Assembly (NCBI GenBank): GCA_052327205.1
Contig: CM126202.1
Span: 376,464,001-376,528,000 of the forward strand
Origin: Somniosus microcephalus
Taxonomy: Eukaryota
Direction: 5' to 3'
Length of the DNA: 64,000 bases
Made by a program: the position numbers and the translations under genes. Of the stretch, positions 14,001-64,000 are shown piece after piece (position 1 is the first letter of the stretch; the number at the start of each line of letters is the position of its first letter). The notes beneath the pieces are model-generated. The model searched no databases. It was not told the DNA's origin and worked only from the letters and a program-made list of their open reading frames with translations.

Positions 14001-15658
14001 AGGTCGTTGTTTAAAAAACCTTGGCGGTGCCTCCTTTTCTACATAAATCTTAGCTGGGGGGCCATTAAATGTGCCAAGTTCCTCCTTGAACACATTCTCA
14101 TGTTCACTCAACACTTCTTGCAAAGTCAACTGTTTGCCCTCATCTATTTGATTTACTGCTCCCCAGTCTAATTTAAGTTCTTTTATCCAGCCCCGACCTA
14201 ACAGGTTTGGTCCGGTACCCGATACTGTAACTACAGGTAGCTGTTCCACTGTGTCCCTGTGTTGCACAGTTACATTAGCTGCACGTAATGTCACTACTCG
14301 TTCAGCTGTATATGTTTTAAGATGCAGAGAGCAAGACATTAACTCTGGAACTTTTGCACGGTTCCACAATTTTGAGTATTCTGCCCTGTTCATTATGGTT
14401 ACACCGCACCCTGTATCAACTTCAAAGTTGACCTCAGAGTCATTTACTGTCAGTTGCAAGGTGATAGGAGCCAATTTTGGAATGTTCTCTAACATGCTAT
14501 ACATTATGAACATGTCCTCTTCTTCCTCAGCTTCCCCGCTGATGTGGTGTGTGCCATGTTTTTTCACTTCTCTTCCTTGGTTTTGCTTTCCTCCCCCTTT
14601 TGGTTTGGATTCCTCCACAGGTGATTTTGCCCTGCATGCTCGTTTTATGTGTCCTTGTTTCCCACACTTGTGGCACTTTTCCTCCAGAAACCGGCATTCA
14701 CTTGCCAGGTGATCGTCCTTGCATCTATAACATGCCTTCACATGCTCACGTTGTGGTTTCTGATGCATGTTTAACTTGTGCACAATAACCTGACCTGCAA
14801 CTTGCTTAGCATTAGCCCTGTCTGAACGCTGTATTTCTTTTACATCTCGGTTCGCTGTCTCTATGGCTTGAGCAAGTTCCAATGCTTTTTCATAAGTAAG
14901 TCCAGTCTCGGAAAATAATCTACGCTGCATTCGGTCATCCATTATTCTGCAAACTAGCCTATCTCTCAGCATTTCCTTCAGGTTGTTCCCATAATTGCAA
15001 TCTTGTGCTAATTTACGCAACACCGCTACATAGTCCATTACACTCTCCTCCTCTTTTCTGTTCCTTGAATTAAACTTGAACCGCTGTACAATCTCACTAG
15101 GCTTAGGGTTAAAATGTTCTTTTAGCAAGGCCACTAATTCAACAATTGATTTGTCTCCAGGCTTTTCAGGACTGAGCAGATTCTTCATCAAACTGTAGGT
15201 TTGGCTTCCCACTGAACTAAGCAGAATGGCTTTCCTTTTTCTGGCATCATTTATTTCATTTGCTTCGAAGAAATAACCCAACACTTCACAGTATTCCTCC
15301 CAGGTTTGTGCTTGAATATCAAAAGCAGAGACCGTACCTATCGTGGCAGCCATGCTCTCGTCCAATTGGTAGCTAACTTTGGCTCGTGAGTTTGTTTTTT
15401 TAAAAGTCCCGGCAGACTTCTCTTCTTTATTCAGTGCCCTTTTACCTCATCGCCAAATGTGATAAATCCATGTAGGGAAACAAGGAACTCGAAGAGGCGA
15501 GATATTAGAATTAGTCCGTGTACTTTTTTAAACAACTGCGTAACAAACATACAGGTCTGCATCCTCTCATTCCACCTCCGCTGACATTAACCAGTAGCAT
15601 CACTAGCTACAGCACCACCTGGTGGATAACCTTAATCATAACATCCCAGATTACTATA
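11020..15658 (-). mobile_element. Gypsy LTR retrotransposon A (Mag/K02A2.6-like), full length, decayed
   Basis: 201-bp LTRs at 11020-11220 and 15458-15658 differ at about 5 positions. 5-bp TSD GGATG. PBS TGGCGATGAGG (15445-15455, tRNA-Ser(GCU)-like). PPT at 11221-11236. Confidence 0.95.
11322..15353 (-). pseudogene. gag-pol of Gypsy A (stops and frameshifts)
   Basis: Two zinc knuckles, protease VDTGC, RT YLDD, RNaseH CDASPYG, integrase HHCC and DDE (HLDY, SDNA, GLAER), split across at least 5 ORFs. Confidence 0.92.
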
Positions 15659-26169: not shown

Positions 26170-27092
26170 AAAGGTAGAAATAGCAGAGACATTGGTCACA
26201 ATCTTTCAATCCTCATTGGATACAGGTGTAGTGCCGGAGGACTGGAGGGTTGCTAATGCTATACCACTATTCAAGAAAAGGGAGAGGGATAAACCAGGAA
26301 ACTACAGTCCAGTCAGCCTAACATTGGTGGTGGGGAAGTTATTTTAAACCATTATCAGGGAAAAAATACACTTTCATTTGGAAAGGCATGGGTTAATCAC
26401 AGAGAGCCAGCTTCGATTTGTTAAAGGTAAATCATGTTTGACTAACTTGATTGAATTCTTTGATGAGGTAACACTGAAGGTTGATCAAGATAATGCAGTA
26501 AATGTAGTATATCTGGACTTTCAGAAGGCATTCAACAAACTGTCACACAGGAGGCTTATTAAGAAGATGGAAGCCCAAGGAATTGAGGTGAAAGTGGCGG
26601 TATTGATACAAAATTGCCTCAGTGACAGGAAGCAATGGGTGGTGGTGGATGGTAGTTTTTCAGACTGGGAGGTGGTTTGCAGTGATGTTCCCCAAGAGTC
26701 AGTTTTGGGTCCATTGCTCTTTGCAATTTTTCTAAACCACCTAGACTCAGGTGTAGGGAGCAGCATTATAAAGTTTGTGTTAAGTCTGTGTGTTCTAGTT
26801 GTAATTACTAACACAGACTACAAGATTAAAGTTCAACAGGTCTTTACTGGTTGGAGGTCAGGACTATACTAAATACAATATTACTACACAGTGCTTATAT
26901 ACCGGTGGTCACCACCGGTATTATGTATACAGCAGCCAGAGAAAGTAATACATCTCTTAAGGTGGAACAGGCTTAAGTTCTCTTAAGGTGGAACAGGTTA
27001 CATACACCACAATCCTCCCTTTTTAGCTTAACAGTCATATCCCCATTTAACATAACATAATAATAACATATATAACTTCAGGTATAAACAGT

Positions 27093-30000
27093 TCAAAGGT
27101 TCAGTCTCTCAGGAGGCCTTCTGATTCGGTTTGGATAACGCCTTTCAGTGGTCTCTGATTCCTGTTGCTGAGGTGACTCCTCTAGTTGGTCTCCCATGCA
27201 TTGGGTGTTATCATCATCAGGTACATTCCCTGCCGAGGTAGATGCTTCAGGTTCATTAACGTCTTCCACAGTTGTCTCTGTCGCAACCATGGGTTCGACC
27301 CTTGCTCTCGATTCTACCAGTTGATCTGCATGACGCCTTATCACATTGTTACCAATATCTACTGTGTACATCAGAGGTCCTTGTCTGGCCCGAATTGTTC
27401 CGGACTGCCATTTTTCGTTTCCATAGCCCCTTGCCAACACTGGTTGTCCTACGTCGAAACTTCGAGTGGTCTTGTTATTAATATGCCGAAACTGTTTGTT
27501 TTCCACTTCCCTCCGCACATTTGGTTTTAACAAGTCCAACCTGGACCGCAACCTCCTGTTGTAAATCATCATGGCAGGACTTTGGTTAGACACTGCATGA
27601 GCGGCGTTTCGATATGCCATTAGGAAATTGTCCACCTTGTGCTGTAGCGGAATCTGATCATCGTTCATGGCCTTTATTGCCTTTTTGAATGTTTGGACAA
27701 ATCTCTCGGCCAACCCGTTTGTCGCCGGATGATATGGGGCAGAGGTATAATGTTTCACCCCATTCTTCTTTAAGAACTTTTGGAATTCTTCCGACATGAA
27801 CTGTGGTCCATTGTCCGAACAGATCTGTTCTGGCAATCCGTTCCTTGCGAATACTGTTCTTAACACCGCAATTGTCTTTTCTGAAGTAGTGGTATTCATC
27901 TTGATCACTTCTGGCCATTTGGAATGTGCGTCCACCGCAATTAGGAACATGGAGTCCATGAATGGACCAGCAAAGTCAATATGTACGCGTTGCCATGGGG
28001 CTGAAGGCCATTCCCATGGGTGTAGTGGTGCGATCGGAGGTGCATTTTGCACTTTTTGGCACCCAGCGCAGCTTTTCGTCAACTCCTCTATCTGTTGGTC
28101 AATACCCGGCCACCATACATAAGCCCTAGCAAGACTTTTCATCTTAACTCCCCCCAGATGACCTTCATGCAGTTCTTTTAGAACTCTTTCCCTTAACTTG
28201 GGAGGAATAATCACTCTTGTCCCGTACATCAAAGTACCATGGCAGACGGACAGCTGGTCTCGCCTTGCCGAGAATGCCCGTAACAGAGGATCACCACATG
28301 TTGGCCATCATTTCACTGTCACCTCGTAGACTCTGGACAGTGTCGGGTCGTTCCTGGTTTCTCTTTCAATACTTGCATTGGTGACTGGTAAACACTTGAT
28401 GATGGTCGAATGAAATAACTCAACAGGGTCAACTTTCGTCGTTTCTTCTCCTTCAGGTAGTGGCAGGCGCGACAGCCCATCAGCATTGCCATGCTGCTTC
28501 GTACCTTTGAATTCTATTTGATATTGATGTGCCCCTAGGAAAAGGGACCATCTCTGGAGACGCTGTGCTGTCATCACTGAAACACCCTTCTTAGGGTTAA
28601 AAATGGATACCAATGGCTGATGGTCTGTCAGAAGTGTGAATTTTTGGCCCTGCAGGTAATGATTAAACTTCTTCACTCCCCATACAAGGCTGAGAGCCTC
28701 CCTATCGATCTGCGCATAGTTGCGCTCAGCAGAGGTCAATGATCTGGATGCAAACGCGACTGGCCTTTCCATGCCATTTGGCAACTTGTGGAGAGTACTG
28801 CCCCAATACCATATGGAGAAGCATCACAAGCCAACCGAATAGGCAGTGTCGGGTTGAAGTGAGCCAACACTTCCTCTGAGGTGATCAATTCTTTGCTTTT
28901 GCGAAATGCCTTCTTACAGTTTTCGCTCCATTCCCATGGTACCCCCTTCTGTAAAAGAGCGTTCAGCGGGTGCAGTACCGTGGATAGATTTGGTAGAAAT
29001 TTATGGTAATAGTTAATCAATCCTAGAAATGACCTCAACTGAGAGACATTATCCGGAGTGGGAGCCTTTACAACTGCCTCTATCTTGTCAGGAGACTTAT
29101 GAAGCCCCTCCCAGTCAATGACATGACCACAGTACAAGATCCACTTCTGGAAGAACTCACATTTCTGCTGATTAACTCTAAGTCCATACTCTTTCAGTCT
29201 GTTGAGCACCAGTTCCAAGTTTGCGAGGTGTTCTTCATCACCATCACCTGTAATCAGAATATCGTCCAGGTAACATTGTGTGCATGGAATTCCCTGTAAT
29301 ACCTGCTCCATGGCCCTCTGTCAAATTGCTGGAGCCGATGCCACTCCAAAAACCAGCCTATTGTACCAGTACAAACCTTGATGCGTGTTGATCGTGAGGT
29401 ATTGGCGTGACTCTTCTTCAACCTCCATCTGCAAGTACGCCTGCGCCATGTCTATCTTGGTGAAGTGTTTCCCGCCAGACAACGAAGCAAAAACATCCTC
29501 AATCCGCGGAAGCGGATACTGCACCGTGTTGTAAGGGTTTCGCAAAATTCCCCTGAAAACAAGAGAAACATTGGTCCACATCGTGGATGAAGATTTATGT
29601 GTTTTTGAATTGCCTCTGGGTCAGATCAATGTTTTGAAGCATGTTCAGAGCCATGAAAGACTGCTGGACTAGACTACAACAGAGTCAAGGAAATTTGGGG
29701 AAGTATTCACACACATTGAGAAGGAACATCTTTTAAGGCTTGTGCTTTGGAGCCCGGTCAAACACAGAGGTTTACAGCTTGTAATGTGTTTGTGTGAAAG
29801 ACCTGTCAATCAAACCAGGGAGGTCAGGAGTTGCCTACCTGACCCGAGGTTGATTATGGCTGGCTATGATTCAACAGCCAATCACAGTCCTTTTTTGTGT
29901 ACTGGTCAGACGGAGCGGCACCAGAATGAAAGACCTGTCAATCAAACCAGGGAGGTCAGGAGTTATCTACTTGACCCGAGGTCGATTATGGCTGGCTATG

Positions 30001-32042
30001 TTTAAACAAGCAATTCAGCAGCCAATCACAGTCCTTTTGTTTGTGTACTGGAACTTTAGGCGGGAATTTTTCCAGACAGAGCGGCAGCAGCAACAAGTAT
30101 AAAAGATAGCTACTGAGAAGCTATCAGGCCTCTTCTCTTTTTACTTCGCTGGATCAGGTGAGCAGAGTGTTTTGACTCCTAAACAAGACAACCTAGCAAG
30201 GACTTTGGGGTGGTGATTTAAGGGAATTGCTAAGATTGTTTAAATAACATTGTAGCCATTGTATCCCTCGCTTTTGCCGTGTGTACCCCCTTGATATATA
30301 CTTTTGTTGCATTTACTATGTTCGTGTGGTATAGTTTATATTTGATTATGGTTCTTTAGTTTAATAAATTTTGACTTTGCTCATATCCAAACAAATTGTC
30401 CGCTTTAACATCATTAATTGTAAGTCCCCCAGTCAGAACTGAAAGGTGGGGTAGCGATTCGGAACCACTGTTAAATTGGTTTACAGTGCAGCAGGCAAAA
30501 GGGCTGCTGGCCAGATATGTTACCATAAACCAGGTAATAGATGCCCCCCCCTACAGTGTGAAGCACCGGATTAACGGTGATTTTGAAATCTCCACAGATG
30601 CGAACCTTCCCTGGTTCTCCTGGCTTGTTGCTCGAAGGATGTTTCATAACGGGAACAATGGGCGTAGCCCACTCACTCCAATCTACCTTAGACAGTACAC
30701 CTGAACGTTCTAGCGCTTCCAGTTCTGCTTCTACAGTAGGTCGTATTGCATAGGGTACCGGTCTGGCTTTAAAAAATTTTGGGTGTGCTTGTTCATCAAT
30801 CTTGATGTTTGCCGTAATTCCTCTCAGTGTTCCCAGTCCCTGCTGGAACACCTCTTTAGCGTCATCCAATATTTTGGACAATCGTTTAGGTTTGACATCT
30901 GTTTCCCCGGAATCTACCGTTAGTGCCTTCAAGGAGTGCCAGTCCATATTCATTTTCCTAATCCACTCCCGTCCCAGTAGTGGTGGACCTCCTTCAGGTA
31001 GCACATATAAGTCCATTACTTGGCTTTCTTCGCCCTTGTGGACCACTTTTACCTCTATCTTTCCGATGGGGTACACACTTTGCCCCGTGTATGTTTTCAA
31101 TATAATCTCCGTATCCCGTAGGGGAATATGTTGGAATAACCTTTTGTAATCTTTCTTATTCATGACCGTCAATGCCGATCCAGTGTCCAATTCCATCTTT
31201 ACTTGGACTCCTGCTATCTGAAGGGTGACCCAAATTGTCTGGAGATCTGCATCCTTACCAACGTTGTGTACTCTTAAGCTACCCAGTTCATTACTGCTAG
31301 CGTCTGAATCTGGCTTCTGTTCGGTCGAACTGTTCTTTGTCACCTTGTGTACCTTTATGTATTTTCCTTGCGGTGACTTTTTGTTGCTGGTCTTCTTTCC
31401 TGACCGGCATACTTTAGCTATGTGGCCAAGCCTGCCACACGTTCTGCACTCTTGGTTTTTAAACCAACACTGGTTCTGATCGTGCGTTGTCTTTCCACAA
31501 CGATAACATTTTACAGTACTCAAACCCAATTTATTTGTACTGAGTTCCGGTGACCTAAGCTGCATTACTGCCGTGCCTCTCGCTGCGGCTTCGTGCGCTG
31601 CTGCCATAGTGACTGCTTTCTCAAGCGTCAGCTCATTCTCCTCGAGCAGTCGCTTTTGTGTATCTTCTTTTAATAGTCTCGTTCCAAACTGACAGTACTT
31701 TGCTAGCTTACGCAATTCCATTAAATATTCAGCATTGCTTTCATCCTTCAGCTGCCTTCTGCTGTAAAATTTAAATCGTTCCGCTAGCATCAGCGGCGTG
31801 GGGTTTAGATGATTTTTCAGGACAGTAACAATCTCCTCGAACGTCTTATCCGCCGGTTCATCTGGTGATAAAAGGTGTTTCAATTGCCCGTATGTCTTCG
31901 CACCCATTAAGTTTAATAATGTTAGTGCTTTCTCTTCATCTGGGATTTTATTTGCTTTACAATAATTTTGTATGCGTTCTACATACATGGCCCAATCTTC
32001 GATGTCGCTATCAAAGGTATTAATGTTCCCATGTTTAGGCAT
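27093..32042 (-). pseudogene. gag-pol of Gypsy B
   Basis: Gag knuckles, LDTGS, YLDD, CDASPYG and integrase DDE ending RRPPERLNL. It carries stops, a frameshift, a 12-aa gag deletion and a solo-LTR insertion in RT. Confidence 0.92.
29530..30555 (+). mobile_element. Solo LTR (1026 bp) inserted in the RT of Gypsy B
   Basis: TGTAAG...CCCTACA termini and TSD GTGT. It has a 132-bp-period internal duplication, CCAAT boxes, TATAAAA near 30098 and AATAAA at 30363. Confidence 0.9.
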
Positions 32043-32757
32043 CGTTGCAATTTAATTTATTTTTATTTTTATCCAAGATGGCGGCTTCCCGCTCTTGTCT
32101 TCATCCTCCGCCTACAAAATGGCGGTTTTCCCGCGCTTGGCGGTCTTCACCCATCCCCCGACGCTGTCTCCGCTTCACCGCGGCTCTCGCGCCTTCAGTT
32201 GCCCCAGACGCTGCGCCTTTTTAGCCCGAATGCGGCCCGGCCCTTATCACCAGCCGCGATCGATGTCCCCGCGCTCCGCCTTTCGGCCCGAATGCGGCCC
32301 GGCCCTTATCTCCGGTCGCGATCGATCTCACCGCCCTTATTCCTCCGTCTTCCCTCCCCGTCTGTACAGCCAACGCGGCCGACTTTCTGGTCGCGTCGCT
32401 GCCCGGCTTACCCACCACCGAGGTAGAATGAAGATAGCTGACAGCCGCTGATGGAGGCTTCGAGTTCAGGATGTCTTCTGCACTCTGGTTTCTCGATGTC
32501 TGCCGCGCGACGTGTCTTCCAGCAGGGTGATGAGGGTGGAAGCCTCTCTTCGACGTCCGTTCTGTGGACGAAGCCATCGTGGATATAAACTGCCGCAGGG
32601 TAAGAATCGGACTCGTCGCCACTGTTTAGTCTGTGTGTTCTAGTTGTAATTACTAACACAGACTACAAGATTAAAGTTCAACAGGTCTTTACTGGTTGGA
32701 GGTCAGGACTATACTAAATACAATATTACTACACAGTGCTTATATACCTGTGGTCAC

Positions 32758-35700
32758 TGTTAAGTCTGTGAATTATTTAGTTAATTAAGACACAGACTAA
32801 TGAGTAACAATAAAAACAGGTCTTTACTGGTTGGAGGTAGGGACTATACTGAATACAAGATTACTGCACAGTGCTTATATACCGGTGTGTTCACCCCCGG
32901 TATTACGTCTACAGCAGCCTGAGAAAGTAGTACATCTCTTAAGGTGGAACAGGCTTAAGCTCTCTTAAGGTGGAACAGGTTACATACACAACACTCCTCC
33001 CTTCTTAGCTTTATAGTCATCCCCCCATTTAACATAACGTAATAACATATATACATATATAACTTCATGTTTAACGTAACATATCACAGATTCAGTCTCT
33101 GCGGAAAACAGCTCACAGATTCAATGTCTGTGGTGTAGTCGGTTCACGTTACTCATTCAATAGTCCTTTCATGGATTTAACAGCTTGAACTTCCGAACTG
33201 ATTTGGCTCCGTTCGGAGGGACCACGTGTGTGATCTGCTAGAGGTGATAATGGTTCAGATGGGTCATCTTCTGTTTTTACTTTTCCTTTTCTGCTTCTTG
33301 GAGACTCTCTGGGCTCCATTGTCAGCTGCCACAGCTGCCAGCTGCATGCGCAGTTCCTCCTTCTCTTCCTCCTGTTTCCGTCGTAGAGCCAGCTTCTCCC
33401 GATGTTCCGTAGACTTTTGGTGCTCCTCCATGATTTCTGCACTTTGGGAGTCGAAGTTACAAGCTGGGCAGGACAGGACATCGTAATATTCGGTGTCGTC
33501 CACCAGGTCATGGTAATATTCGGTGTCGTCCTGAGCTAGACCAGTGAGAGGGTCGTCTATTTCCTCCATACCCAGCTGGACGTTAGCCAGCTCTTGTTCC
33601 AAATCCAGACATCTTTCCTGAAGAGACTTCTTCATGTGTACCTCTGCATCCAGCTTTTTCTGGGCTTTCAGCAAGTCGTTTACTAGTGACCTCATTTGTG
33701 ATTTTAATACTTCAACTTCCTTTGGAGATTGATTGATCGGACTATGCAATCCCTCTACCGGAGCAGCCGTTTCAGCGGTCTGTTGTTCTACATTGACGTG
33801 AGTCAGCGTACTTTTGGCATCCAATGGCTGCTCTGTTGCAGTCGTTTCAGTCTGTGTCGTCACATCAGCCATCTCAATGACTTTTGAGAGCTCCAAACCC
33901 TTTTCCTTTGAAGATCGCAGCTCGTGTTCAAGTTTTTCCCATTTCAGAGTCTTGTCCCTCAGCATATGAAGGAGTTGGCTGACCGTTAACTCTTCTGACA
34001 CCAGATTATGGCACGTACCTTCAGAACCTGAATCAGCTTTGATTCGTTCGGCCTCCTCGCGCAGATGGTTGGTGTGCCCCTGCTCCATTTTCTCCATCAG
34101 TTGCTTCTGTTGCCTTTCCAGATTCTCCCACTCTGTAACAAAGAACTTTTTTATTTCATTCATCTCTTGCTCAAAACGGCGAATCATTTGTTCTAATTGC
34201 TGTTGTAGTTTGAAATGGAGTTGAGTTCGAGCCCAGTGTCCCTCAAAAATGTGCATATCAGTAGACTTGACAGACTCGGAATTCTCTGTTAAACTATGTT
34301 GTTGTTGCTCAGTGGAATTCTGTGCTGAAACTTTGTCTTTTGCACATGGGTTGGTCTTACCATCATCAGTTCTAGAGTCTGGGCTGATTATCTGCACCGA
34401 GTTCTCACTCTTTATGGCTTTTAGCGAATGCCAGTCCATATTTATGTTTCTAAACCACTCCCGGCCTAGTAGTGGTGGACCTCCCTCCGGTAGCACATAT
34501 AAGTCCATTATTTGACTTCCTTCGCCCTTGTTGGCCACTGCAACCTTTATTGTCCCGATGGGGTACACTCTCTGCCCCGTGTAGGTTGTCAATATAATCT
34601 CCGTATCCTGTAGGGGAATATGTTGGAATAACCTTCTGTAATCTTTCTTATTCATGACCGACAATGCCGATCCAGTGTCCAATTCCATTTTTACTTGGAC
34701 TCCTTCTATCTGAAGAGTAACCCAAATTGTCTGGAGGTCTGCACCCTTACCAACGTTGAGTACCCTTAAGCTAGCCAGTTCAATACTGCTTAAGCCAGCC
34801 AGTTCATTACTGCTAGCATCTGAATCAGACTCCTGTTCGGCCACCTTGTGTACCTTTGCGTATTTCCCTTGCGGTGACTTCTTGTTGCTGGTCTTCTTCC
34901 CTGACCTGCATACTCTAGCTATATGTCCAAGCCTACCACATGTTCTGCATTCTTGGTTTTTAAACCAACACTGGTTCTGATCATGCGTTGTCTTTCCACA
35001 ACGATAACATTTAACAGAACTCACACCCAATTTGTGTGCACTGAGCTCCGGTGACCGTAGCTGCATTACTGCCGTGCCTCTCGCTGCGGCTTCGTGTGCT
35101 GCTGCCATAGTGACCGCCTTCTCAAGCGTCAGCTCATTCTCCTCGAGCAGTCGCTTTTGTGTATCTTGTTTAAATAAACCACACACAAATTTGTCTCGTA
35201 GTGCATCTGTCAGTCCCGTTCCAAACTGACAATATTTCGCTAATTTACGCAATTCCAGCAAATATTCAGCATTGCTTTCATTCTGTAGTTGCCTTCTGTC
35301 ATAAAATTTAAATCGTTCCGCTAGCATCAGCGGCGTGGGGTTTAGATGATCTTTCAGGACAGTAACAATCTCATCGAACGTCTTATCCGCCGGTTCATCT
35401 GGTGATAACAGGTGTTTCAATTGCCCGTATGTCTTCGCACCCATTAAATTTAATAATGTTAGTGCTTTATCTTGCTCACGAATTTTATTGGCCTTACAAT
35501 AATTTTTTACTCGTTCTACATATATGGCCCAATCCTCGATGTCACTATCAAAGGTGCCAATATTCCCGTGTTTAGGCATTGTTACAATTTTGTTGGAATT
35601 TTATGTTACACAAGATGGCGGCTTCCCGCTCTTTGTCGTCGTCCTCCGCTCCCAAGATGGCGGTTTTCCCGCGTTTGGCGGTCTTCACCCGTCCCCCGAC

Positions 35701-36305
35701 GCTGTCTGTAAGCCCGAGTGCGGCCCTTATCTTTTATGCGATCGCTGATCGCGAAGCGGCTCCCGACCGAAGCGGCTCTTGGCCCTTATCTGGAGTGCGA
35801 TCGCTGGCTTGAAACGCCACCCGCTCGAAGCGGCTCTCGCGCCCTTATCGCAGATGCGATCGATTTGAAAGCGGCCCGGCCCTTATCTGCCGATCGCTAT
35901 CGCCCTGTACCTCTGTCTTCCCCAGCCCTGTCTTCTACTCCGGTTCACAAGCTGATGGAGGCTTCAGGGTCCTAATGCCTGTCGCTTCCAGTGGGGTGGT
36001 GAGGTTTGAAACCTCTCTTCAACCGCCGTGGAATAACTGCCGCAGGGTAAGAACCTGACTCGTCGCCAGTGTTAAGTCTGTGAATTATTTAGTTAATTAA
36101 GACACAGACTAATGAGTAACAATAAAAACAGGTCTTTACTGGTTGGAGGTAGGGACTATACTGAATACAAGATTACTGCACAGTGCTTATATACCGGTGT
36201 GTTCACCCCCGGTATTACGTCTACAGCAGCCTGAGAAAGTAGTACATCTCTTAAGGTGGAACAGGCTTAAGCTCTCTTAAGGTGGAACAGGTTACATACA
36301 CAACA
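32758..36305 (-). mobile_element. Non-autonomous Gypsy-derived element C carrying a chimeric ORF
   Basis: Identical 236-bp LTRs (32758-32993, 36070-36305), TSD GTCAC, PBS TGGCGACGAG (36059-36068), PPT at 32994-33006. No RT, RNaseH or integrase core. Confidence 0.95.
33264..35579 (-). CDS. 771-aa Gag-protease fused to STK10/SLK-like, optineurin-like and DNAJC21-like segments
   Basis: Uninterrupted ORF. Residues 1-388 are collinear with Gypsy B Gag-PR. Residues 446-515 resemble the STK10/SLK PKK coiled coil, 529-673 the OPTN coiled coil, and 694-771 the DNAJC21 zinc finger plus its basic patch. Recognised from memory. Confidence 0.85.
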
Positions 36306-38420
36306 GTCACCACCGGTATTACATATACAGCAGCCAGAGAAAGTAGTACATCTCTTAAGGTGGAACAGGCTTAAGTTCTCTTAAGGTGGAACAGGTTACA
36401 TACACCACAGTTTGTAGATGAGACAAAACTTGGCAAAGTAGTAGATAGTGATGAGGATCGTTATAGGCTTTAGGATAACAGACAGGATGGTGAAATGGGC
36501 AGAAGTATGGCAGATGGAGTTCAATGCAGAGAAGTGTGAAGTGATGCACTTTGGGAGGACTAATATGGAAAGACAGTAAGACAGTATACTATAAATGGCA
36601 CAATTTTGAAAAGTGTAGATGAGCAGAGAGACCTTGGTGTCCTGATACACAAATCCGTAAAGGTGGCAGGGCAAGTTGATAAGGTGGTTAAAAAAGCATA
36701 TGGGTTACTTGGCTTTATAAATAGAGGAATAGAACTTTATAGATCACTGGTTAGGCCTCGGCTGGAGTATTGTGAAAACTCTGTGCACAACAGTCAGGAA
36801 AGATGTAAAGGCCTTAGAAAGGGTACAGAGCAGATTTATCAGGATGTTACCAGGGATGAGGGACTTCAGTTATGAAGAGAGGTTGAAAAAGTTAGGACTC
36901 TTCTCCTTGGAACAGAAAAGGTTAAGAGGTGACCTCATAGATGTTACCAAGATGATGAGAGGTTTTATAGAGTAAATAGAGAAAAGCTATTCCCTCTGGC
37001 GAGTGGTCCAATAACCAGAATTCATAGATTCAAAATCATTGGCAAAAGATCTAGAGGGGAGATGAGGAGAATTTTTTTCACTCCCAGTTGTCGGGATCTG
37101 GAACACTCTACCTGAAATGGTGGTGGAAGCTGATTCCATAAATAATTTTAAAAGGGAGCTGGACAGGTACTTGAGGATGAGGAACTTCCAGGGTTATGGA
37201 CAAAAAGCGGGAATAAGCACAACTGCTCTTTCAAAGAGCCAGCACAGGCACGATGGGTCGAATGGCCTCCTTCTGTGCTGTAAGTTTCTATGATTCTATA
37301 TGGACTGTTCAAATCAGCGAGAGTTGGTCTGGTACATTGGAAAAGATTAGTTCGACCAGTTAACTTCTGTAGTTGTTAAGGTCATAAGAAAAAAACAACT
37401 ATGTATACAGGAAAGTTATTTACAAAATTATAGTTTAGCATAAAGCAAATTTGTTTGGCTTTTACAAGGTCTGTTGTTAGTGTTGTTCTACCACGTTTCA
37501 AGGTTAGAACCCTGTGGAGGTACAGGCTAGATCCAATAGCTAAAGGCAAGTTTTCTGCTTGTTATTCTGGGCATGCTAGCAAAACTTACCTGGAAACCAC
37601 AGCAAATGAAATAGTCTCAAAGTTGTAGGGGAGTAAGACTCATTATAAGAGCAGTTTAAAATATGGAAGGCAAAATATCTAGACCAAAAAAGGCAGCGAG
37701 GCACAAAAATATAACAGCTGCTGGCCCAGGGAAACTACAATTTCCTTGGAAATGCAAAGGGTTAAATAACAAACTGCAAATGCACTGAAATAAATTGATG
37801 CAAATAAACAAGACAAATTTATGGTATATAAATAGTAATTCAAGTCTAAAGATTGATTGGGGTTTGTTGCTGTTGAGAGATCAGTAATGAAGCATAATGC
37901 ACATCCTGAGATGTCAACCACGACAGACCAGACATTCAATTTTCAAACGTCCTTAAAGAGAAACAAGGCCTGATTTTGCTCTCTAGCTGCAATCTTGGCC
38001 AAGTTCAGTAGAAGTGCACTCTGCTGGGACCAAGGCCACACCAACCGAACTTCCTCTTGGCCTGAATTAAAGTAATGCAGCTGCATGTGGGGATGCTCTA
38101 TTGGGTACAGGCAAGAAAGGAAGACAAATTGAGGCTGCTTTTTGTTAATTCAAAATGGGATGCAGTCGCGTATCTTGAAGGAGAGGGACGATTTTCCCCC
38201 TCTGGTAGGGAAACAGTGGTGAGATGCTCAGGAGAGATGCAGGCACATTTCCCCAGCAGTTGTCAAGGGAGCTTGTGGTATTTTTCCCTCGTATGTTCCA
38301 AATAAGCCGTATCACAAAAGGGGATGGGAAAAGTTGGAACAATACTGAACACTGCCTCTATTGCGAAGTGTAAGAGGCAGAGAGCATTCAGCATCAAGTC
38401 CTGAAGCAGCAAAACTATAT

Positions 38421-48890: not shown

Positions 48891-51800
48891 TGTGGTGATT
48901 ATTCTTTATGTTTAGTAAGAAGTATTGTGATTGGTTGTTTGTTTCCTGCCTTGGGATATATGTTGTAATCTCATTGGTAGTTGATGTCATGTGATTTGTG
49001 GTGGCCATCTTAAATTCAGTTCTTTCCAGCCTTTTGTTGGGACTGGGTGTTGAAGATGTGCTACAGGATTTTTAAGTTAATAAAGCCTAGATTAGAAAGG
49101 CAAATCTATTCTTTATTTCAATTTATTAACTTTATGTCAGAATGGAGCGATATCTTCAACCAGAACGATTCAATGCTGACCCTAATTCTGCAGGAGTGGA
49201 TGATAAATGGAAACACTAGTATTGTACATTTAAAAACTTTTTGGGCGTGTTGGATCAAGAGTCTCTAAATAAGCTGAATATGCTGATCAACTACATTGCT
49301 CCGGATGTGTATAAGTATATTTTGGACTGTAAAACTTACGAAGTGGCTATTTCTACATTGGAAAAGATTTTTGTTAAACCAAAGAATGAGGTATTTGCAC
49401 GTCACCTTCTATCTGCCCGTAGGCAGCAGGTGGGAGAATCTTTGGATACTTATTTACAAGCACTTCGGTGCCTTAGTGTTAACTGTAATTATAAGGCCAT
49501 GACGGCTGAAGAATATAAGGAAGAATCGGCACGGGATGCTTTTATTAATGGATTACTGTCTAGATCAATTAGTCAGCGGTTGTTAGAAAATAAGACTTTG
49601 GATCTTAAGAGTGCTTTTGAGCAAGCTTCTACATTGGATGTGGCTCAGAGAAGTTCGGATTCTTATGCTCTTTTTAATCGGCCTGTGACTGTGGTTTCGG
49701 CAGTTCCGGATGAAAAGGAATTATGTGGACTTAATAGGAGTGGTTTACTAGATTCTGAAACAGTTTCTACTTCAGCGGCTGTTGCCTCTAGGATTCAGAA
49801 GTGTTATTTTTGTGGGAACGTCCGGCACCCTCGTCTGAAGTGTCCTGCTCGGGAGGCTGTGTGTAGTAAATGCGGCAAGAGAGGTCATTACGCACGTGTG
49901 TGTAAATCATCAGGTTCAATTACCTCCTCTGTGACTATTCAGCCTTTAGATAGGGCGTTTATTGCATCAATTTCTGCTGCATTTGCTCATGGCCTAAACA
50001 AAGCTATAGTTACGGCCCAAGTTAATGGGTTGGAAGTGAAGGCCCTTATAGATACGGGCAGTACCGAGAGTTTTATAAGTCTTCAGTTTGCAAAGGAGAA
50101 GCATTTGAAAATTTTGCCTGTTTCCTATCAGGTGTGTATGGCTCAGACGACTCTCACTTCACAAGTAGCTGGTTGTTGCCTTGTGAAATTGATTCTTCTA
50201 GGTAATACGTATACTGATATATGCCTATCTGTTTTGCCTAATCTCTGTGCGGATATTTTGATTGGTCATGATGTGCTTCAGTTACACGAGTCTCTCAATC
50301 TTTCATTTGGAGGGACTAAGCCACCTTTATCTATTTGTGGATTAACCTCTTTATCCATTTCTCCATTATCACTTTTTTCCAATTTGATGCCAGATTGTAA
50401 GCCAATTGCTACCAAGTCAAGAAGGTATAGCAGTCAGGATAGAGAATTTATTAATTCTGAAGTTCAACGTCTCTTATTGGAAGGAATCATTGAACCTAGT
50501 TGTTCGCCTTGGCGGGCACAGGTAGTTGTCACGACTAACGAGAGACATAAGAAACGAATGGTGATAGACTATTCCCAAACTATTAATAGGTATACTCAAT
50601 TAGATGCGTACCCTTTGCCTAAGATTGATGAGCTTATCAATAAAGTATCTCAGTATAAGGTTTTTAGCACTATTGACCTAAAGAGTGCTTATCATCAGAT
50701 TCCTATTGTTAAGAAGGATCAACCATATACGGCCTTTGAGGCTGGTGGAAAGCTGTATCAGTTTTGCCGAATACCATTTGGTGTTACTAATGGTGTTGCT
50801 TGTTTTCAATGGGCAATGGATGCTTTTATAAGTGATAACTCTCTCTCTGACACCTTTTCATACTTAGATGACATCACGGTGTGTGGCAAATCAAGGGTGG
50901 AGCATGATTCTAATTTAGAAAGATTCCTTGAAGCTGCTGAAAAAGTTAGTTTAACTTTCAATAAAGAGAAGTGTACCTTTTCGACCACTGAGGTAAATCT
51001 ACTGGGGTATATTATCTCGGGAAACAAGATTAAACCAGACCCAGAATGTCTGCGACCATTGATTGATTTACCCTGTCCTACTAATTCTAAGGCTTTGCAA
51101 CGAGTTGTTGGACTGTTTTCTTACTATTCTAATTGGATTGCAATTTTTTCACAGAAGATCTGGCCTCTTATTCGGGTTACGACATATCCTCTATCATGGG
51201 AGGCCAGGACGTGTTTTGATAATTTTAAAAAGGATATCCTTGGAGCAGTTGTGCATTCTATTGATGAGCAGGTTCCTTTTGTGATTGAGACGGACGCTTC
51301 TGATTTTGCAATTGGGGCTACTCTGAACCAAAATGGAAGACCTGTGGCTTTTTTCTCACGTACCTTGAACAATAGTGAAAAAAGGCATTCTTCAATAGAG
51401 AAAGAGGCGTATGCAATAGTAGAAGCACTGCGTAAATGGAGACATAATTTATCTGGGTGACATTTTACGTTGGTAACTGATCAAAAGTCTGTGTCCTTTA
51501 TGTTTGATGTCAAACATTTTGGAAAGATTAAGAATGATAAAATAATGAGGTGGAGGATTGAGTTGGCATGTTACCATTTTGATATAGTTTATCGTCCGGG
51601 GAAGGATAATGTTGCTGCTGATGCGCTGTCGAGGGCTTATTGTTCTGTGATTCACGGAGATACGCTTATTAATCTTCACAATGCCTTATGCCATCCTGGG
51701 GTTACGAGGATGATACACTTCGTACGCAGTAAGAATTTGCCCTTTTCAGTTGAAGACGTCAAGCGGATGACTTCATCATGTTCTATCTGTGCTCAGTGTA

Positions 51801-53297
51801 AACCGAATTTCTTTAAGCCTCAATGAGCTCATCTTATAAAGGCTGCTTCTCCTTTTGAACATTTGAGCGTCGATTTTAAGGGGTCTCTTCCTTCAACTAC
51901 TCAAAACCGATATATATTTACTGTTGTGGATGAGTTTTCAAGGTTCCCTTTTGCTTTTCCTTGCGCAGATGTATCAGCTGCTACAGTTATCAAATGTCTG
52001 ACTCAACTTTTTGTCATCTTTGGGATGCCTGCGTATATCCATTCGGATCAGGGAAGTTCTTTTATGTCTTCCCAGTTGAAGGAATACCTTCAGAGTTGGG
52101 GAATTTCTACTAGCAGAACTACCCCGTATAATCCCCAGGGTAATGGACAGTGCGAACGATACAATGGGGTGATCTGGAAGGCAGTTATGTTGGCTTTGAC
52201 ATCCCGGAACCTTAAGAATACACAGTGGGAAATGGTACTGCCTGATGCCCTGCATTCCATTAGATCATTGCTTTCAACGGCTACTAATGTGACCCCCCAT
52301 GAAAGGCTCTTTAACTATCCGCAGAGATCTACTACGGGATATTCGGTACCTTCATGGCTTACTATGCAGGGACCTGTGCTGCTTCGACGCCATGTTAGAT
52401 TGTCAAAATATGATCCATTAGTGGAGGAGGTGGAGCTGTTGGAGGCAAATTCCCAATATGCTCATATTCGATTCCAAGATGGGAAAGAAAGTACCGTTTC
52501 AATTAAAGACTTGGCTCCTTGTGGTGGCCAGCCCTCTTCTGAGGATATTAACAATAGTCATGATTCAGGTAATGTGGATGCTGTTACAGATACTACGAAT
52601 ATTTCCAATCCGACTGCAGATAATTATACTTCTATTAGTCAGCCCTCGATAGATGTTCATGACCGTCCCAGTTTACCTCCTGATGGGATTTCTAATCCGG
52701 AAACCGTTGAAAATCGGGATATGGATAGCCTTCCGGCAGAAGATACTTCTGTGTCTCCTGGTGTGGGAGGGCAAGGAATTTCACCAAGGTTAAGAAGGTC
52801 GACACGAACAAGATATCCGGTCGACCGATTGAAAATGGACTTTTAAATTGATAGTAATGTTTTAAAATTGTTGAAATATTATATTATATTGTTTTAGTTG
52901 AGAGATATTTAATACTTATGTGCAATGTTACTATTTGTTGTTGCTCACTTAGTATTGTGTCATGTTGAATAGTTTTATTTTGTCTGTGCATAGTTTTAGT
53001 TGTAAATAATTAATTATAAATTGTAAAGGTTATTTAGGTTGGAGTATATTTTAAAAGGAGGGGTGAATGTGGTGATTATTCTTTATGTTTAGTAAGAAGT
53101 ATTGTGATTGGTTGTTTGTTTCCTGCCTTGGGATATATGTTGTAATCTCATTGGTAGTTGATGTCATGTGATTTGTGGTGGCCATCTTAAATTCAGTTCT
53201 TTCCAGCCTTTAGTTGGGACTGAGTGTTGAAGATGTGCTACAGGATTTTTAAGTTAATAAAGCCTGGATTAGAAAGGCAAATCTATTCTTTATTTCA
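48891..53297 (+). mobile_element. Gypsy LTR retrotransposon D, full length, mildly decayed
   Basis: 230-bp LTRs (48891-49120, 53068-53297) with 3 differences. PPT AAAAGGAGGGGTGAA. The TSD is imperfect (CCATT/ATATT) and there is no clear tRNA PBS. Confidence 0.92.
49142..52846 (+). pseudogene. Single-frame gag-pol of Gypsy D with three in-frame stops
   Basis: MERYLQPERF..., zinc knuckles, IDTGS, YLDD, TDASD, HHCC and DDE. Stops at about 49216, 51458 and 51824, all in one frame. Confidence 0.92.
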
Positions 53298-53380
53298 ATA
53301 TTCTAAGCATGAATACATAGTTAAATTATGGCCATATTTCCCTCTATTAGCAAAAAAAAGTTTAATTCACTTAACATCTA

Positions 53381-54779
53381 GGCCTAGAAATTGAGTTGAC
53401 GCCGCGCCAGGGCTTTAGCGCCGGAAATTTAGCGCCGGCGCTAATTCCCTTGCGCGCGCCAAAAATTCAGTAGCGCCGCGCCCAGACGGCTGCCGGCGCT
53501 ACTGGCGGGCGTGAGCGCCTCCCAATGGGCGCTGAGTGCCGTATTGCGGCGCTAATCCGGCGCTGCGGCACCCGATGCGGTGCGGCAGGCTGGGGAAGTG
53601 CAGGCCTCCTCCTTCAGTTAAGGAGGAGCTGCCTGCACCCGCCCGCTGTCCGTTCAAATATTGAAAAAATGAGCCCGGCACCACGGACAAGTGCCGGGCT
53701 TGCAGGCCAGACGCATCTGTTCCACGGGGGGGGGGGTGGAGGAGTCCGGGGAGGGAGGTGCGGGCAGGCAGCCGACGGGAAAGCGGCCGGCCGCAGCGCG
53801 ACCTTAATGCGCCGGCGCAAACTCGGGGAAGACTCTGTTGCCAGAGTCTTAGGCCTAGAAATTGAGTGCCCTTAGCGCCGATTTTGCGGCGCTAGAGGGC
53901 CTAGCGCTGCATTTGGCGCCGGCGCCGAAATTGCCTGGGGCCCTTACGCCGCGGTAGACCGGTAGCGCTGCGCCGGCACCGATGACGTCATCGGTGTGCG
54001 CAGCGTCCCGGTTGCCATGACGACGGGCCCCAGCGCCGAAATTCAGTTGCGGCCGCCTCGCCCGTGGCAGCCGCAACTAAGACTCTGGCAACAGAGTCTT
54101 CCCCGAGTTTGCGCCGGCGCATTAAGGTCGCGCTGCGGCCGGCCGCTTTCCTGTCGGCTGCCTGCCCGCACCTCCCTCCCCGGACTCCTCCACCCCCCCC
54201 CCCCCGCGGAACAGATGCGTCTGGCCTGCAAGCCCGGCACTTGTCCGAGGTGCCGGGCTCATTTTTTCAATATTTGAACGGACAGCGGGCGGGTGCAGGC
54301 AGCTCCTCCTTAACTGAAGGAGGAGGCCTGCACTTCCCCAGCCTGCCGCACCGCATCGGGTGCCGCAGCGCCGGATTAGCGCCGCAATACGGCACTCAGC
54401 GCCCATTGGGAGGCGCTCACGCCCGCCAGTAGCGCCGGCAGCCGTCTGGGCGCGGCGCTACTGAATTTTTGGCGCGCGCAAGGGAATTAGCGCCGGCGCT
54501 AAATTTCCGGCGCTAAAGCCCTGGCGCGGCGTCAACTCAATTTCTAGGCCTTAGTTGCGGCTGCCACGGGCGAGGCGGCCGCAACTGAATTTCGGCGCTG
54601 GGGCCCGTCGTCATGGCAACCGGGACGCTGCGCACACCGATGACGTCATCGGTGCCGGCGCAGCGCTACCGGTCTACCGCGGCGTAAGGGCCCCAGGCAA
54701 TTTCGGCGCCGGCGCCAAATGCAGCGCTAGGCCCTCTAGCGCCGCAAAATCGGCGCTAAGGGCACTCAATTTCTAGGCC
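53381..54779 (+). mobile_element. Harbinger-type MITE, outer copy (53381-53851 plus 54554-54779)
   Basis: Perfect TIR GGCCTAGAAATTGAGT and TSD CTA. Confidence 0.93.
53852..54550 (-). mobile_element. Same MITE, inner inverted copy (699 bp)
   Basis: Perfect TIR and TSD TTA (53849-53851 / 54551-54553). It contains the intact version of the site it interrupts. Confidence 0.93.
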
Positions 54780-55004
54780 CTAGAATTTAACAAAGCCAAA
54801 TCAAAATGGCAGGTACCCATGACTTTGCGCAGATCATTTTCTGCAATACAATTTTGGTGGTGGGAATGGAAGCAAATGGCCTATCATGACACGTCAATAT
54901 TAATGCTTATTTCATATGTATCAAGCAGCTAAATTGCTACATAGCCAGCATAAATGGTCAATATTTCATTCATCCAGTTGTCAAAATGGGAAAACTTTTG
55001 AAAA

Positions 55005-59065: not shown

Positions 59066-59916
59066 CAAGCTCAGTCTGCTCCTTGCAATCAGAGGAGCAG
59101 GTTGTGTGGCTGAGCTGCTCCTGCTGCTACTGTGGGGAGAGAGTGTGTGGTCCAAAACAACCCATCGACAGAGGTGCCTGGAGAGGAAGGAGTGGAGGAC
59201 AGAGGAGGAGGCCAGCATTAGAACAGGAGAGGCCTCTTTTCCAGCACTGCCTCCCAATTCGGCCTCCAGCCCAGGAGAGGGAGAGAGGGAGAGAGGATAC
59301 CAACAGCTCCACTTGGAAGGAGGGGAGGAGCTGCAACTCCAACATCTGCAGGTGGGTGTCTCTGTGTATTCCCCTAAAGACTTTTTGCATTCTAGGCGGG
59401 GGGAGGAAAAGAAGACGGGCCGAAAGCCTGGCCTGGGTTGGCTGGAGCCTGCCCAGGTGAAGCTGCTTCCCTCATCAAAAAGACCTGGTGTGGGCTGAAC
59501 CTGGGCTGTCTCCAGTCTGCCCAGGCGAAGACATCTTCTCCCCCTGCCCGAAGACCACCAGAAAAGACTTTGCTTTGACCATCGGGGGAGTACACCCTGC
59601 CGACACCCACCCACCGCCTATCATCGTCGAGTGGGGACCCTGCCTTTGCGGCCCCCCCCGCTCCTTCCCACCCCCCTCTCTCTCTCTCTTTGTCCTCTCT
59701 CTGCCTCTCCGATAGGCACCTCCCTTATTAATTTCCCAATTGAGCAGAGGGAAGAAAGGGCCCCCTCCCAATTCATACCATCAAGGGGAGAGGTGGCCCA
59801 GTACATTTACGCTCCCTCTGCTCAGGAAAGACCTTGTTACACCGAGGCCATTTTTAACACCTTCGGGCCTGTGACTTTTGGGGTGTGTGTAGCTCTTTTT
59901 TAAAATCCACCCCACG

Positions 59917-62075: not shown

Positions 62076-62105
62076 GTTTAAGTAGGGGTTGGTTGTGCTT
62101 CTGAA

Positions 62106-63998: not shown

Positions 63999-64000
63999 CT

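What the first reader, a model, noticed from the sequence alone, without database searches (positions are those of the whole stretch)
33561..34010. Captured segment 2: central coiled coil of optineurin
[13 protein letters not shown]...[11 protein letters not shown]...TTQTE and [41 protein letters not shown] match my recollection of OPTN ([32 protein letters not shown]...ETQTE; [41 protein letters not shown]). The piece lies between the LIR and UBAN motifs and lacks both. OPTN is an established selective-autophagy receptor and TBK1/NF-kB adaptor. Speculation: a Gag-tethered fragment could act as a decoy against autophagic or innate clearance of retrotransposon particles.
Basis: partly seen in the sequence, partly recalled or inferred. 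Interest (0 to 1): 0.85.

Follow-up and report, generated by a model that had tools for sequence, protein, structure and literature searches.

The report
Shark retrotransposon shuffling captured host exons
A shark jumping gene that lost its own copying enzymes has filled the gap with spliced pieces of host genes, among them optineurin, joined in one reading frame behind its capsid protein and spread to thousands of copies; the optineurin piece looks like decaying, replaceable filler rather than a weapon against the host.

Summary
The OPTN match is real: 68% identity to sawshark optineurin 224-384. It matches four host OPTN exons with their introns removed, plus a stub of exon 3. It lies in a 3,548-bp Gypsy LTR element lacking RT and integrase, whose single 771-aa frame reads Gag, protease, STK10 pieces, OPTN, zinc finger. 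1,741 places in the genome carry its diagnostic joint. Sister families show the history. First, pol was replaced by one full turn of an STK10 circular RNA (back-splice joint at the true GT/AG). Then OPTN exons 3-8, LIR included, were inserted. Then the LIR stretch was deleted at a microhomology. Other families carry other cargo or no OPTN. The decoy idea is not supported: TBK1 site, leucine zipper, LIR and UBAN are absent, changes hit conserved OPTN residues as often as variable ones (6/34 vs 18/108), and one family reads part of OPTN out of frame. Gag and protease are under purifying selection. Best reading: the open frame is kept, the cargo is interchangeable. Each ingredient is known; I found no report of the combination at this scale.

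The parts
33559..34005 (-). OPTN exons 5-8 (exon 5 from its middle, exon 8 to its middle), introns absent, in frame with Gag-PR; exon numbers count coding exons of the host gene
   Evidence: blastn to host gene 77-94%; spliced joints at 33899, 33729, 33613; AG/GT at all six host exons
33999..34041 (-). Stub of OPTN exon 3, joined to exon 5 by an internal skip of about 87 codons that removes the leucine-zipper and LIR region
   Evidence: 88% nt to C17:85879057-99; 6/7-nt microhomology at the skip; 1,741 genome matches to this joint, control 0
34033..34411 (-). STK10 (LOK) pieces including the start of the PKK coiled coil; remnant of a captured STK10 circular RNA with two in-frame internal deletions
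   Evidence: PF12474 E 3e-12; STK10 best hits; 87-95% nt to host exons at C8:167.19 Mb
33264..33558 (-). C-terminal C2H2 zinc finger and basic tail with a 33-nt duplication; source gene not verified (DNAJC21-like is recalled, from no call)
   Evidence: PF12171 weak here (E 0.046), E 1e-8 in sister copy L077; no match in 130 kb of the DNAJC21-like locus
34845..35579 (-). Gag with two CCHC knuckles
   Evidence: Pfam zf-CCHC and weak Retrotrans_gag; dN/dS 0.21 vs partner, p 8e-9
34410..34733 (-). Aspartic protease with intact DTG motif
   Evidence: PF13975 E 5.5e-5, below the family cut-off; dN/dS 0.28 vs partner, p 6e-4
33152..33272 (-). End of the STK10 circle (exon 8 end, exon 9 pieces), now mostly 3' UTR
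   Evidence: 86-93% nt to host exons
36070..36305 (-). 5' LTR, TG...CA, followed by a primer-binding-site-like TGGCGACGAG at 36068-36059
   Evidence: 99% identical to the 3' LTR; ends read; a tRNA-Ser primer is recalled, not tested
32758..32993 (-). 3' LTR, preceded by a polypurine tract at about 33006-32994
32753..32757 (.). 5-bp target-site duplication GTCAC (second copy 36306-36310)
26778..36409 (-). Related gag-pol Gypsy element (PR-RT-RH-IN order; this copy's pol is broken) into whose 5' LTR the cargo element has inserted; representative of the likely helper family
   Evidence: split LTR 32623-32757 + 36306-36409 matches 26778-27011 at 97-98%; own GTTTG duplication; RT, RNase H, integrase domains; 85% nt over gag-PR

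Best explanation
The OPTN segment is one module in the variable tail of a semi-autonomous Gypsy element (Gag + protease, no RT or IN). SHOWN: (1) the founder had pol replaced by STK10 exons in circular order, one full turn; (2) OPTN exons 3-8 were later swapped into that backbone from spliced RNA; (3) the window's family then lost the LIR stretch and the 3' part of OPTN and gained a zinc finger; (4) joints sit on short shared sequences; (5) the family spread recently to more than a thousand sites. INFERRED: the joints are reverse-transcriptase template switches between co-packaged RNAs inside particles; RT and IN come from the related gag-pol family; the element pays its way with working Gag and protease. 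The tail is kept because the frame must stay open almost to the 3' LTR, most likely so that the genomic RNA, which is also the mRNA, has no long 3' UTR and escapes nonsense-mediated decay. Any in-frame, stop-free host coding sequence will do, so the OPTN piece is translated filler drifting away from OPTN function. Confidence: about 0.95 for the origin, about 0.6 for the filler reading.
For: Intron-less OPTN. Back-splice joint exactly at the host donor and acceptor; circle 1,245 nt, no stop in two turns; 1,110 genome matches to that joint. LIR-bearing OPTN copies, 95-100% nt to host exons 3, 4, 5, 7, 8 in the 6 of 12 loci that the plus-strand comparison aligned; 2,129 matches to the LIR probe. 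Microhomology 9/9, 6/7 and 10/11 nt at the three OPTN joints; a random joint reaches 9 nt with p 1e-4. Gag dN/dS 0.21, PR 0.28 against OPTN 0.52-0.62, not different from neutral (N23/S15, p 0.06-0.15). Changes at conserved OPTN columns 6/34 vs variable 18/108, p 1.0; in 14 sharks and rays only 1-3 of 35-37 conserved columns change. L164 reads about 13 codons of OPTN exon 6 out of frame yet keeps a 991-aa frame; the frame-restoring deletion is in 2,039 places. Cargo is interchangeable: Ig arrays, longer STK10, other coiled coils, no OPTN. Recurrent indels among 20 copies picked by the joint alone are -24 (12/20), -33 (7/20) and net +3 (3/20). Stop lies 17-347 nt before the 3' LTR in 22 of 25 loci.
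Against: OPTN dN/dS is below 1 and only marginally different from Gag (Fisher p 0.067), so mild constraint on the tail is not excluded; one short STK10 piece shows dN/dS 0.13 (p about 0.01, uncorrected for four segments); shared OPTN variants among the 20 copies are N1/S3 (p 0.07). Microhomology joints are in frame 54-67% of the time by codon bias alone, and the 25 loci were chosen for long ORFs or protein similarity. No direct evidence for decay of stop-bearing copies, for translation, or for the helper relationship. The compensated frameshift was read in one copy; the probe covers only its restoring end.
Confidence: 0.6

Rival explanations
1. The tail protein has a generic job for the element: a soluble coiled-coil or Ig spacer standing in for Pol during particle assembly, promoting Gag self-association or co-assembly with helper Gag-Pol. 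Shape and charge are selected, not OPTN identity.
For: Coiled-coil cargo recurs (STK10 PKK, OPTN, others); the STK10 PKK start is kept in every family examined; OPTN dN/dS 0.52-0.62.
Against: All families were found through STK10 or OPTN queries, so retention of STK10 is partly built in; E/K/Q-rich coding sequence favours in-frame switches by itself; Ig arrays are not coiled coils; an out-of-frame patch is tolerated.
Confidence: 0.22
2. No selection on the tail at all: in-frame joints come from microhomology bias plus ascertainment, and the cargo hitchhikes on successful Gag-PR and LTR variants.
For: In-frame share of long microhomologies 54-67%; OPTN and zinc-finger tail not significantly different from neutral; the copies are very young (14 differences in 4,073 LTR sites), so open frames are expected.
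Against: Eight rearrangement joints plus two recurrent indels in the window lineage all keep the frame, roughly 0.6^8 = 0.02 under bias alone (my estimate); a compensated frameshift fixed in a large family; no fixed stop across 38 family-level substitutions in the OPTN piece.
Confidence: 0.11
3. One reading: the OPTN coiled coil is a decoy that pairs with host OPTN and shields particles from autophagy or TBK1 signalling.
For: OPTN-bearing families are abundant (1,741, 2,129 and about 1,900-2,000 probe matches) and the window's family is transcribed in two runs; OPTN can oligomerise (PMC6018216, passages).
Against: TBK1 binding needs residues 1-127, ATG9A binding the 143-164 zipper, ubiquitin binding 445-577 of human OPTN (PMC7480101, passages); by alignment none is in the window's piece. 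Conserved residues are not spared. Families without OPTN also spread. A tail behind the nucleocapsid and protease should face the particle interior and be cut off (own knowledge).
Confidence: 0.07

Closest known systems
LTR-mediated retrocopies in metazoans (Tan et al. 2016, PMC5131818; abstract, outline and passages read)
   Same: Intron-less host fragments inside LTR elements, microsimilarity at switch points, multi-gene chimeras, often in frame with the parent gene, re-mobilised as non-autonomous elements.
   Different: In the passages read these are young, few-copy loci. Here the cargo is fused to a Gag-protease under purifying selection, has gone through many rounds of gain and loss, and forms families of thousands.
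Maize Bs1 (as described in PMC5131818, passages; original papers not read)
   Same: LTR element carrying fragments of three unlinked host genes with shared switch points among copies.
   Different: 1-5 copies, one fragment out of frame, a plant element; no circular-RNA origin mentioned in those passages.
Semi-autonomous Gypsy elements of wheat: RLG_Sabrina_SA, RLG_WHAM (PMC9744471) and RLG_Quinta (PMC11302176); passages read
   Same: Gag (+ protease, or + a domain of unknown function), no RT or IN, high copy number, shared LTR/PBS with an autonomous partner, gag swapped by recombination.
   Different: No host-exon mosaic fused to Gag is described in those passages; the shark tail is traceable exon by exon to host genes.
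circRNA-derived pseudogenes (Dong et al. 2016, PMC4897178; first of two parts of the text read)
   Same: Non-colinear back-splice joint fixed in DNA; 33 circRFWD2 copies in mouse, enriched for flanking LTR sequence.
   Different: There they are pseudogenes and the mechanism is called mysterious. Here both switch points into Gypsy pol are visible, the capture is one full turn, the circle is an endless open frame read on from Gag-PR, and 1,110 places keep the joint.
Acutely transforming retroviruses with gag-onc fusions (recalled, no call)
   Same: Defective, helper-dependent genome with spliced host sequence fused to gag.
   Different: No env, no sign of infection, germline amplification, and the cargo shows decay rather than gain of function.

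Membership tests
Semi-autonomous (Gag-PR) Ty3/Gypsy LTR retrotransposon | Paired LTRs TG...CA, PBS, PPT, short target-site duplication | tested here: met
   perfect 5-bp duplications in 15 of 20 further copies
Semi-autonomous (Gag-PR) Ty3/Gypsy LTR retrotransposon | Intact Gag and protease, no RT or integrase | tested here: met
   dN/dS 0.21 and 0.28
Semi-autonomous (Gag-PR) Ty3/Gypsy LTR retrotransposon | Related family with PR-RT-RH-IN order sharing LTR ends and PBS | tested here: met
   partner at 26778-36409, LTRs 84-86% alike; that copy is broken
Semi-autonomous (Gag-PR) Ty3/Gypsy LTR retrotransposon | Mobilised in trans by that family | not testable with these tools
   inferred from shared ends only
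LTR-mediated retrocopy | Introns of the parent gene absent | tested here: met
   3 introns here, 5 in older families
LTR-mediated retrocopy | Microsimilarity at switch points | tested here: met
LTR-mediated retrocopy | Co-transcribed with the element | tested here: inconclusive
   reads cover all 30 bins in two RNA runs; one run 23:1 strand-biased over the cargo, the other 1:1; short reads, species match to G000 not shown
circRNA-derived retrocopy (STK10 backbone) | Non-colinear joint exactly at a splice donor and an upstream acceptor | tested here: met
   sister copy L070 vs host; in the window's family the joint itself has been overwritten by OPTN, only both flanks remain
circRNA-derived retrocopy (STK10 backbone) | The circular RNA exists in the host | not tested
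   needs RNase R-treated RNA; trans-splicing could give the same joint
OPTN decoy / dominant negative | Keeps a mapped OPTN binding site (TBK1 site, leucine zipper, LIR, UBAN) | tested here: not met
   older families do keep zipper and LIR
OPTN decoy / dominant negative | OPTN-conserved residues preserved | tested here: not met
   6/34 vs 18/108
OPTN decoy / dominant negative | Binds host OPTN | not tested

The most novel reading that the evidence does not exclude
These elements are a self-propagating exon-shuffling platform founded on a captured circular RNA, in which host modules are tried out on Gag and kept when they help the element. On this reading the roughly 2,000 copies that still carry OPTN's leucine zipper and LIR make a Gag-linked protein that engages ATG9A and ATG8 (as decoy, or as a liability), and the window's family spread because it dropped that autophagy handle.
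Probability: 0.15. Interest if true: 0.88.

Novelty: new variant of a known kind. Interest (0 to 1): 0.72.

Why it matters
It gives a step-by-step natural record of how a reverse transcriptase captures a circular RNA, with both switch points preserved, which the circRNA-pseudogene paper left open. It shows serial, in-frame exon shuffling on a vertebrate Gypsy Gag at a scale of thousands of copies, and offers a testable rule (keep the frame, not the protein) for why defective elements carry cargo. It is also a practical warning: thousands of intact, transcribed STK10, OPTN and Ig-domain fragments in long ORFs could be mis-called as gene-family expansions in shark genome annotation.

Tried and rejected
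Chance coiled-coil similarity: rejected by nucleotide matches to host exons. Assembly chimera: rejected by 109 of 109 scored matches at 99%, 1,741 joint matches and reads or contigs from four runs. A tandem three-LTR element: rejected; the 15 ten-kb loci show a stand-alone 3.5-kb element, and the window copy is nested in another element's LTR. PDB search with the tail: 0 hits. Source of the zinc finger: protein search found none among 33 candidates, Atlas gave only generic C2H2 clusters, PF21884 led to another gene, and 130 kb of the DNAJC21-like locus held no match; left unverified. Top representative hit P0033 is an unrelated repetitive coiled-coil protein by its sequence. One apparent compensated frameshift in L164 was an artefact of two extra bases in the host assembly and a 1-nt slip in my exon end; withdrawn. 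The same slip inflates host-versus-element nonsynonymous counts by about six codons, so I rely on the older-family-to-window comparison. Independent loss of the LIR in the L164 family is not claimed: it shares a derived residue with the window's family. No RNA holder was listed by the run index; the RNA runs were added by species label. Earlier scan findings: none.

Full report
Observation. Its 150 codons hit optineurins of sharks and rays first (best 70%, E 1e-46; 29 hits among 516 candidates), so the host is a shark. BLASTP aligns it to residues 224-384 of sawshark OPTN. The host gene lies at G000:C17:85.87-85.91 Mb. The element matches four consecutive exons end to end with the introns gone, plus a 43-nt stub of exon 3. 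All six host exons concerned have AG/GT ends. Capture from spliced RNA is therefore shown.

Anatomy. The ORF reads Gag, aspartic protease, STK10 pieces, OPTN, zinc finger. It sits between 236-bp LTRs at 36305-36070 and 32993-32758 with a 5-bp target duplication, a PBS-like site and a polypurine tract. There is no RT or integrase. In the window it has inserted into the 5' LTR of a related gag-pol element whose pol is broken; the 15 other copies fetched at 10 kb show the same 3.5-kb unit in other surroundings. A protein search of the genome scored 109 of 24,245 candidates, all 99-100% identical and without stops in the match (this picks the best). A 30-nt probe of the LIR-skip joint matches 1,741 places, reversed control 0. 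I fetched 20 of these, the first 20 plus-strand places taken from the C1 list, skipping a few: 15 have no stop or frameshift over the aligned ORF, 15 have perfect 5-bp duplications, and 18 LTR pairs differ at 14 of 4,073 sites. The family is very young.

History. A PKK search gave 16,569 candidates, 150 scored; of 20 fetched, 19 are Gag-PR-STK10 fusions or fragments of them and one is a processed STK10 3' end (part's output was cut, six loci re-printed in 42). In L070 the host STK10 exons run 9-10-11-12-8-9 at 97-100% identity (numbering by my count of coding exons). The 12-to-8 joint falls exactly on the host GT donor and AG acceptor. The five-exon circle is 1,245 nt with no stop in two turns, and the insert enters and leaves Gypsy pol at nearly the same point of the circle. 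This is one full turn of a circular RNA; 1,110 places keep the joint. Searching with whole OPTN scored 66 of 23,837 candidates; the 12 best loci carry OPTN exons 3-8 with zipper and LIR inside the STK10 backbone, and a LIR probe matches 2,129 places at up to 2 mismatches. The window's family derives from these by skipping about 87 codons and losing the 3' part. Each joint lies on a shared sequence: 9/9 nt STK10-to-OPTN, 6/7 at the skip, 10/11 OPTN-to-STK10 exon 8; 9 nt arises at random with p 1e-4. Other families carry titin/obscurin-type Ig arrays or further coiled coils whose gene names I only recall. A third OPTN family (1,894 probe matches; one copy read, L164) has a long extra coiled coil ahead of the OPTN piece. 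Probe counts use different mismatch limits and are not additive; the shared exon-5 probe gave 2,837 at 1 mismatch.

Selection. Against the partner, Gag has dN/dS 0.21 (p 8e-9) and protease 0.28 (p 6e-4); among the 20 copies plus the window, shared Gag variants give 0.44 (p 0.02) and singletons 1.0. On the branch from the LIR-bearing copies to the window's family the OPTN piece has 23 nonsynonymous and 15 synonymous changes, 0.52-0.62, p 0.06-0.15; the contrast with Gag is marginal (p 0.067). The sharper test: those changes hit 6 of 34 columns conserved in 18 OPTNs and 18 of 108 variable ones (p 1.0), whereas 14 sharks and rays differ from sawshark at 1-3 of 35-37 conserved columns and 23-47% of variable ones (the control is partly circular, as the columns are defined from related hosts). 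L164 reads about 13 codons of exon 6 in another frame and returns; the restoring deletion is in 2,039 places. Against this reading stand the sub-neutral point estimates, one STK10 piece at 0.13 and shared OPTN variants N1/S3. The frame is what is kept: eight joints and the recurrent indels all preserve it, and the stop lies within 350 nt of the 3' LTR in 22 of 25 loci (one at 3,065 nt, two without an LTR found; loci chosen for long ORFs or protein similarity). Codon bias alone makes 54-67% of long microhomologies in frame, so part of this is mutational.

Expression. Two RNA runs, listed by the species label of a holder, lay 9,597 of 16.65 M and 7,787 of 14.40 M reads at 95% or better, over all 30 bins. 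Over the cargo bins the first-mate ratio is 23:1 in X18, the ORF's sense if the library is of the usual stranded type, and 1:1 in X19. Contigs under three organism labels in four studies hold half or more of the words. Whether these are the species of G000 is not shown. Translation is not shown.

Mechanism. Shown: order and nature of the captures, recent spread, constraint on Gag-PR, erosion of OPTN. Inferred: template switching by the helper's RT among co-packaged RNAs; Gag and protease supplied by the element; an open frame to near the 3' LTR favoured because long 3' UTRs behind gag draw nonsense-mediated decay (PMC5580461, abstract, for RSV). I give the filler reading 0.6, a generic structural role 0.22, pure hitchhiking 0.11 and the OPTN decoy 0.07. 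Human OPTN binds TBK1 through 1-127, ATG9A through the 143-164 zipper and ubiquitin through 445-577 (PMC7480101, passages); the window's piece covers none of these by alignment. The LIR-bearing families are the place where an autophagy link remains open; their intact FVEI in 12 of 12 copies is weak evidence, since they were picked for likeness to OPTN.

Known and new. LTR-mediated retrocopies with microsimilarity and multi-gene chimeras, Bs1, Gag-PR semi-autonomous Gypsy families and circRNA pseudogenes are all described. Ten full-text searches showed no paper on this shark family; (shark genome, Gypsy, STK10, optineurin, retrocopies; 3 of 5 terms) returned 0. The library lacks most subscription journals, I saw only listings for most hits, I read no supplements, and repeat databases were not searchable, so the family may already be catalogued as a repeat. 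No Gag-STK10-OPTN fusion appeared among named proteins of other sharks. Verdict: a new variant of known kinds; the OPTN piece is real, the decoy is unlikely, and the system around it is the interesting part. Interest 0.72.

Noticed in passing
L070, L075, L078 (G000:C1:28.03 Mb, C13:67.00 Mb, C14:114.49 Mb): Founder-type elements in which pol is replaced by one full turn of a five-exon STK10 circle, in frame from the protease into the last codons of integrase.
   Followed up: yes
L059-L067, L069, L073, L076: Sister families with three to four I-set Ig domains of a titin/obscurin-type gene inserted in frame into the STK10 backbone; source gene not identified.
   Followed up: partly
L059, L061, L063, L067, after the protease: A further in-frame insert of about 150 aa beginning with a C2HC-like zinc finger; source unknown.
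   Followed up: no
L071, L072: In-frame insert of about 170 aa resembling a BAZ1A-type chromatin protein (recalled, no Pfam hit), plus an extra integrase C-terminal piece.
   Followed up: no
L039:680-3130 and L164: More diverged families with long coiled-coil cargo resembling EVI5 and RAI14/UACA-type proteins (recalled, not tested).
   Followed up: partly
G000:C17:85884780-85885370: The assembled host OPTN gene has two extra single bases near the exon 5/6 joint relative to the four element copies compared, which breaks its frame; probably assembly slips.
   Followed up: partly
L068 (G000:C3:354.658 Mb): Intron-less copy of the 3' end of STK10 (residues 753-977, 97%), a separate processed retrocopy.
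   Followed up: no
G000:C8:2.30-2.42 Mb and C30:27.43-27.47 Mb: Two further STK10/SLK-like kinase genes besides STK10 at C8:167.2 Mb.
   Followed up: no
L034, L039, L043 and window 26778-36409: The cargo element is often nested inside other Gypsy elements; host STK10 introns also hold Gypsy copies.
   Followed up: no
window 11020-15658 (-) and 48891-53306 (+): Two other LTR-bounded Gypsy elements with broken pol genes.
   Followed up: no
window 53380-54793: Nested long inverted repeats, arms 127-357 nt at 98-99%.
   Followed up: no
window 59893-64000: GC-rich (60-70%) stretch with an ORF1-like frame of a non-LTR retrotransposon (recalled resemblance).
   Followed up: no
window 29673-30470: About 0.9 kb of foreign sequence with an 88-nt repeat interrupts the partner's RT region.
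   Followed up: no
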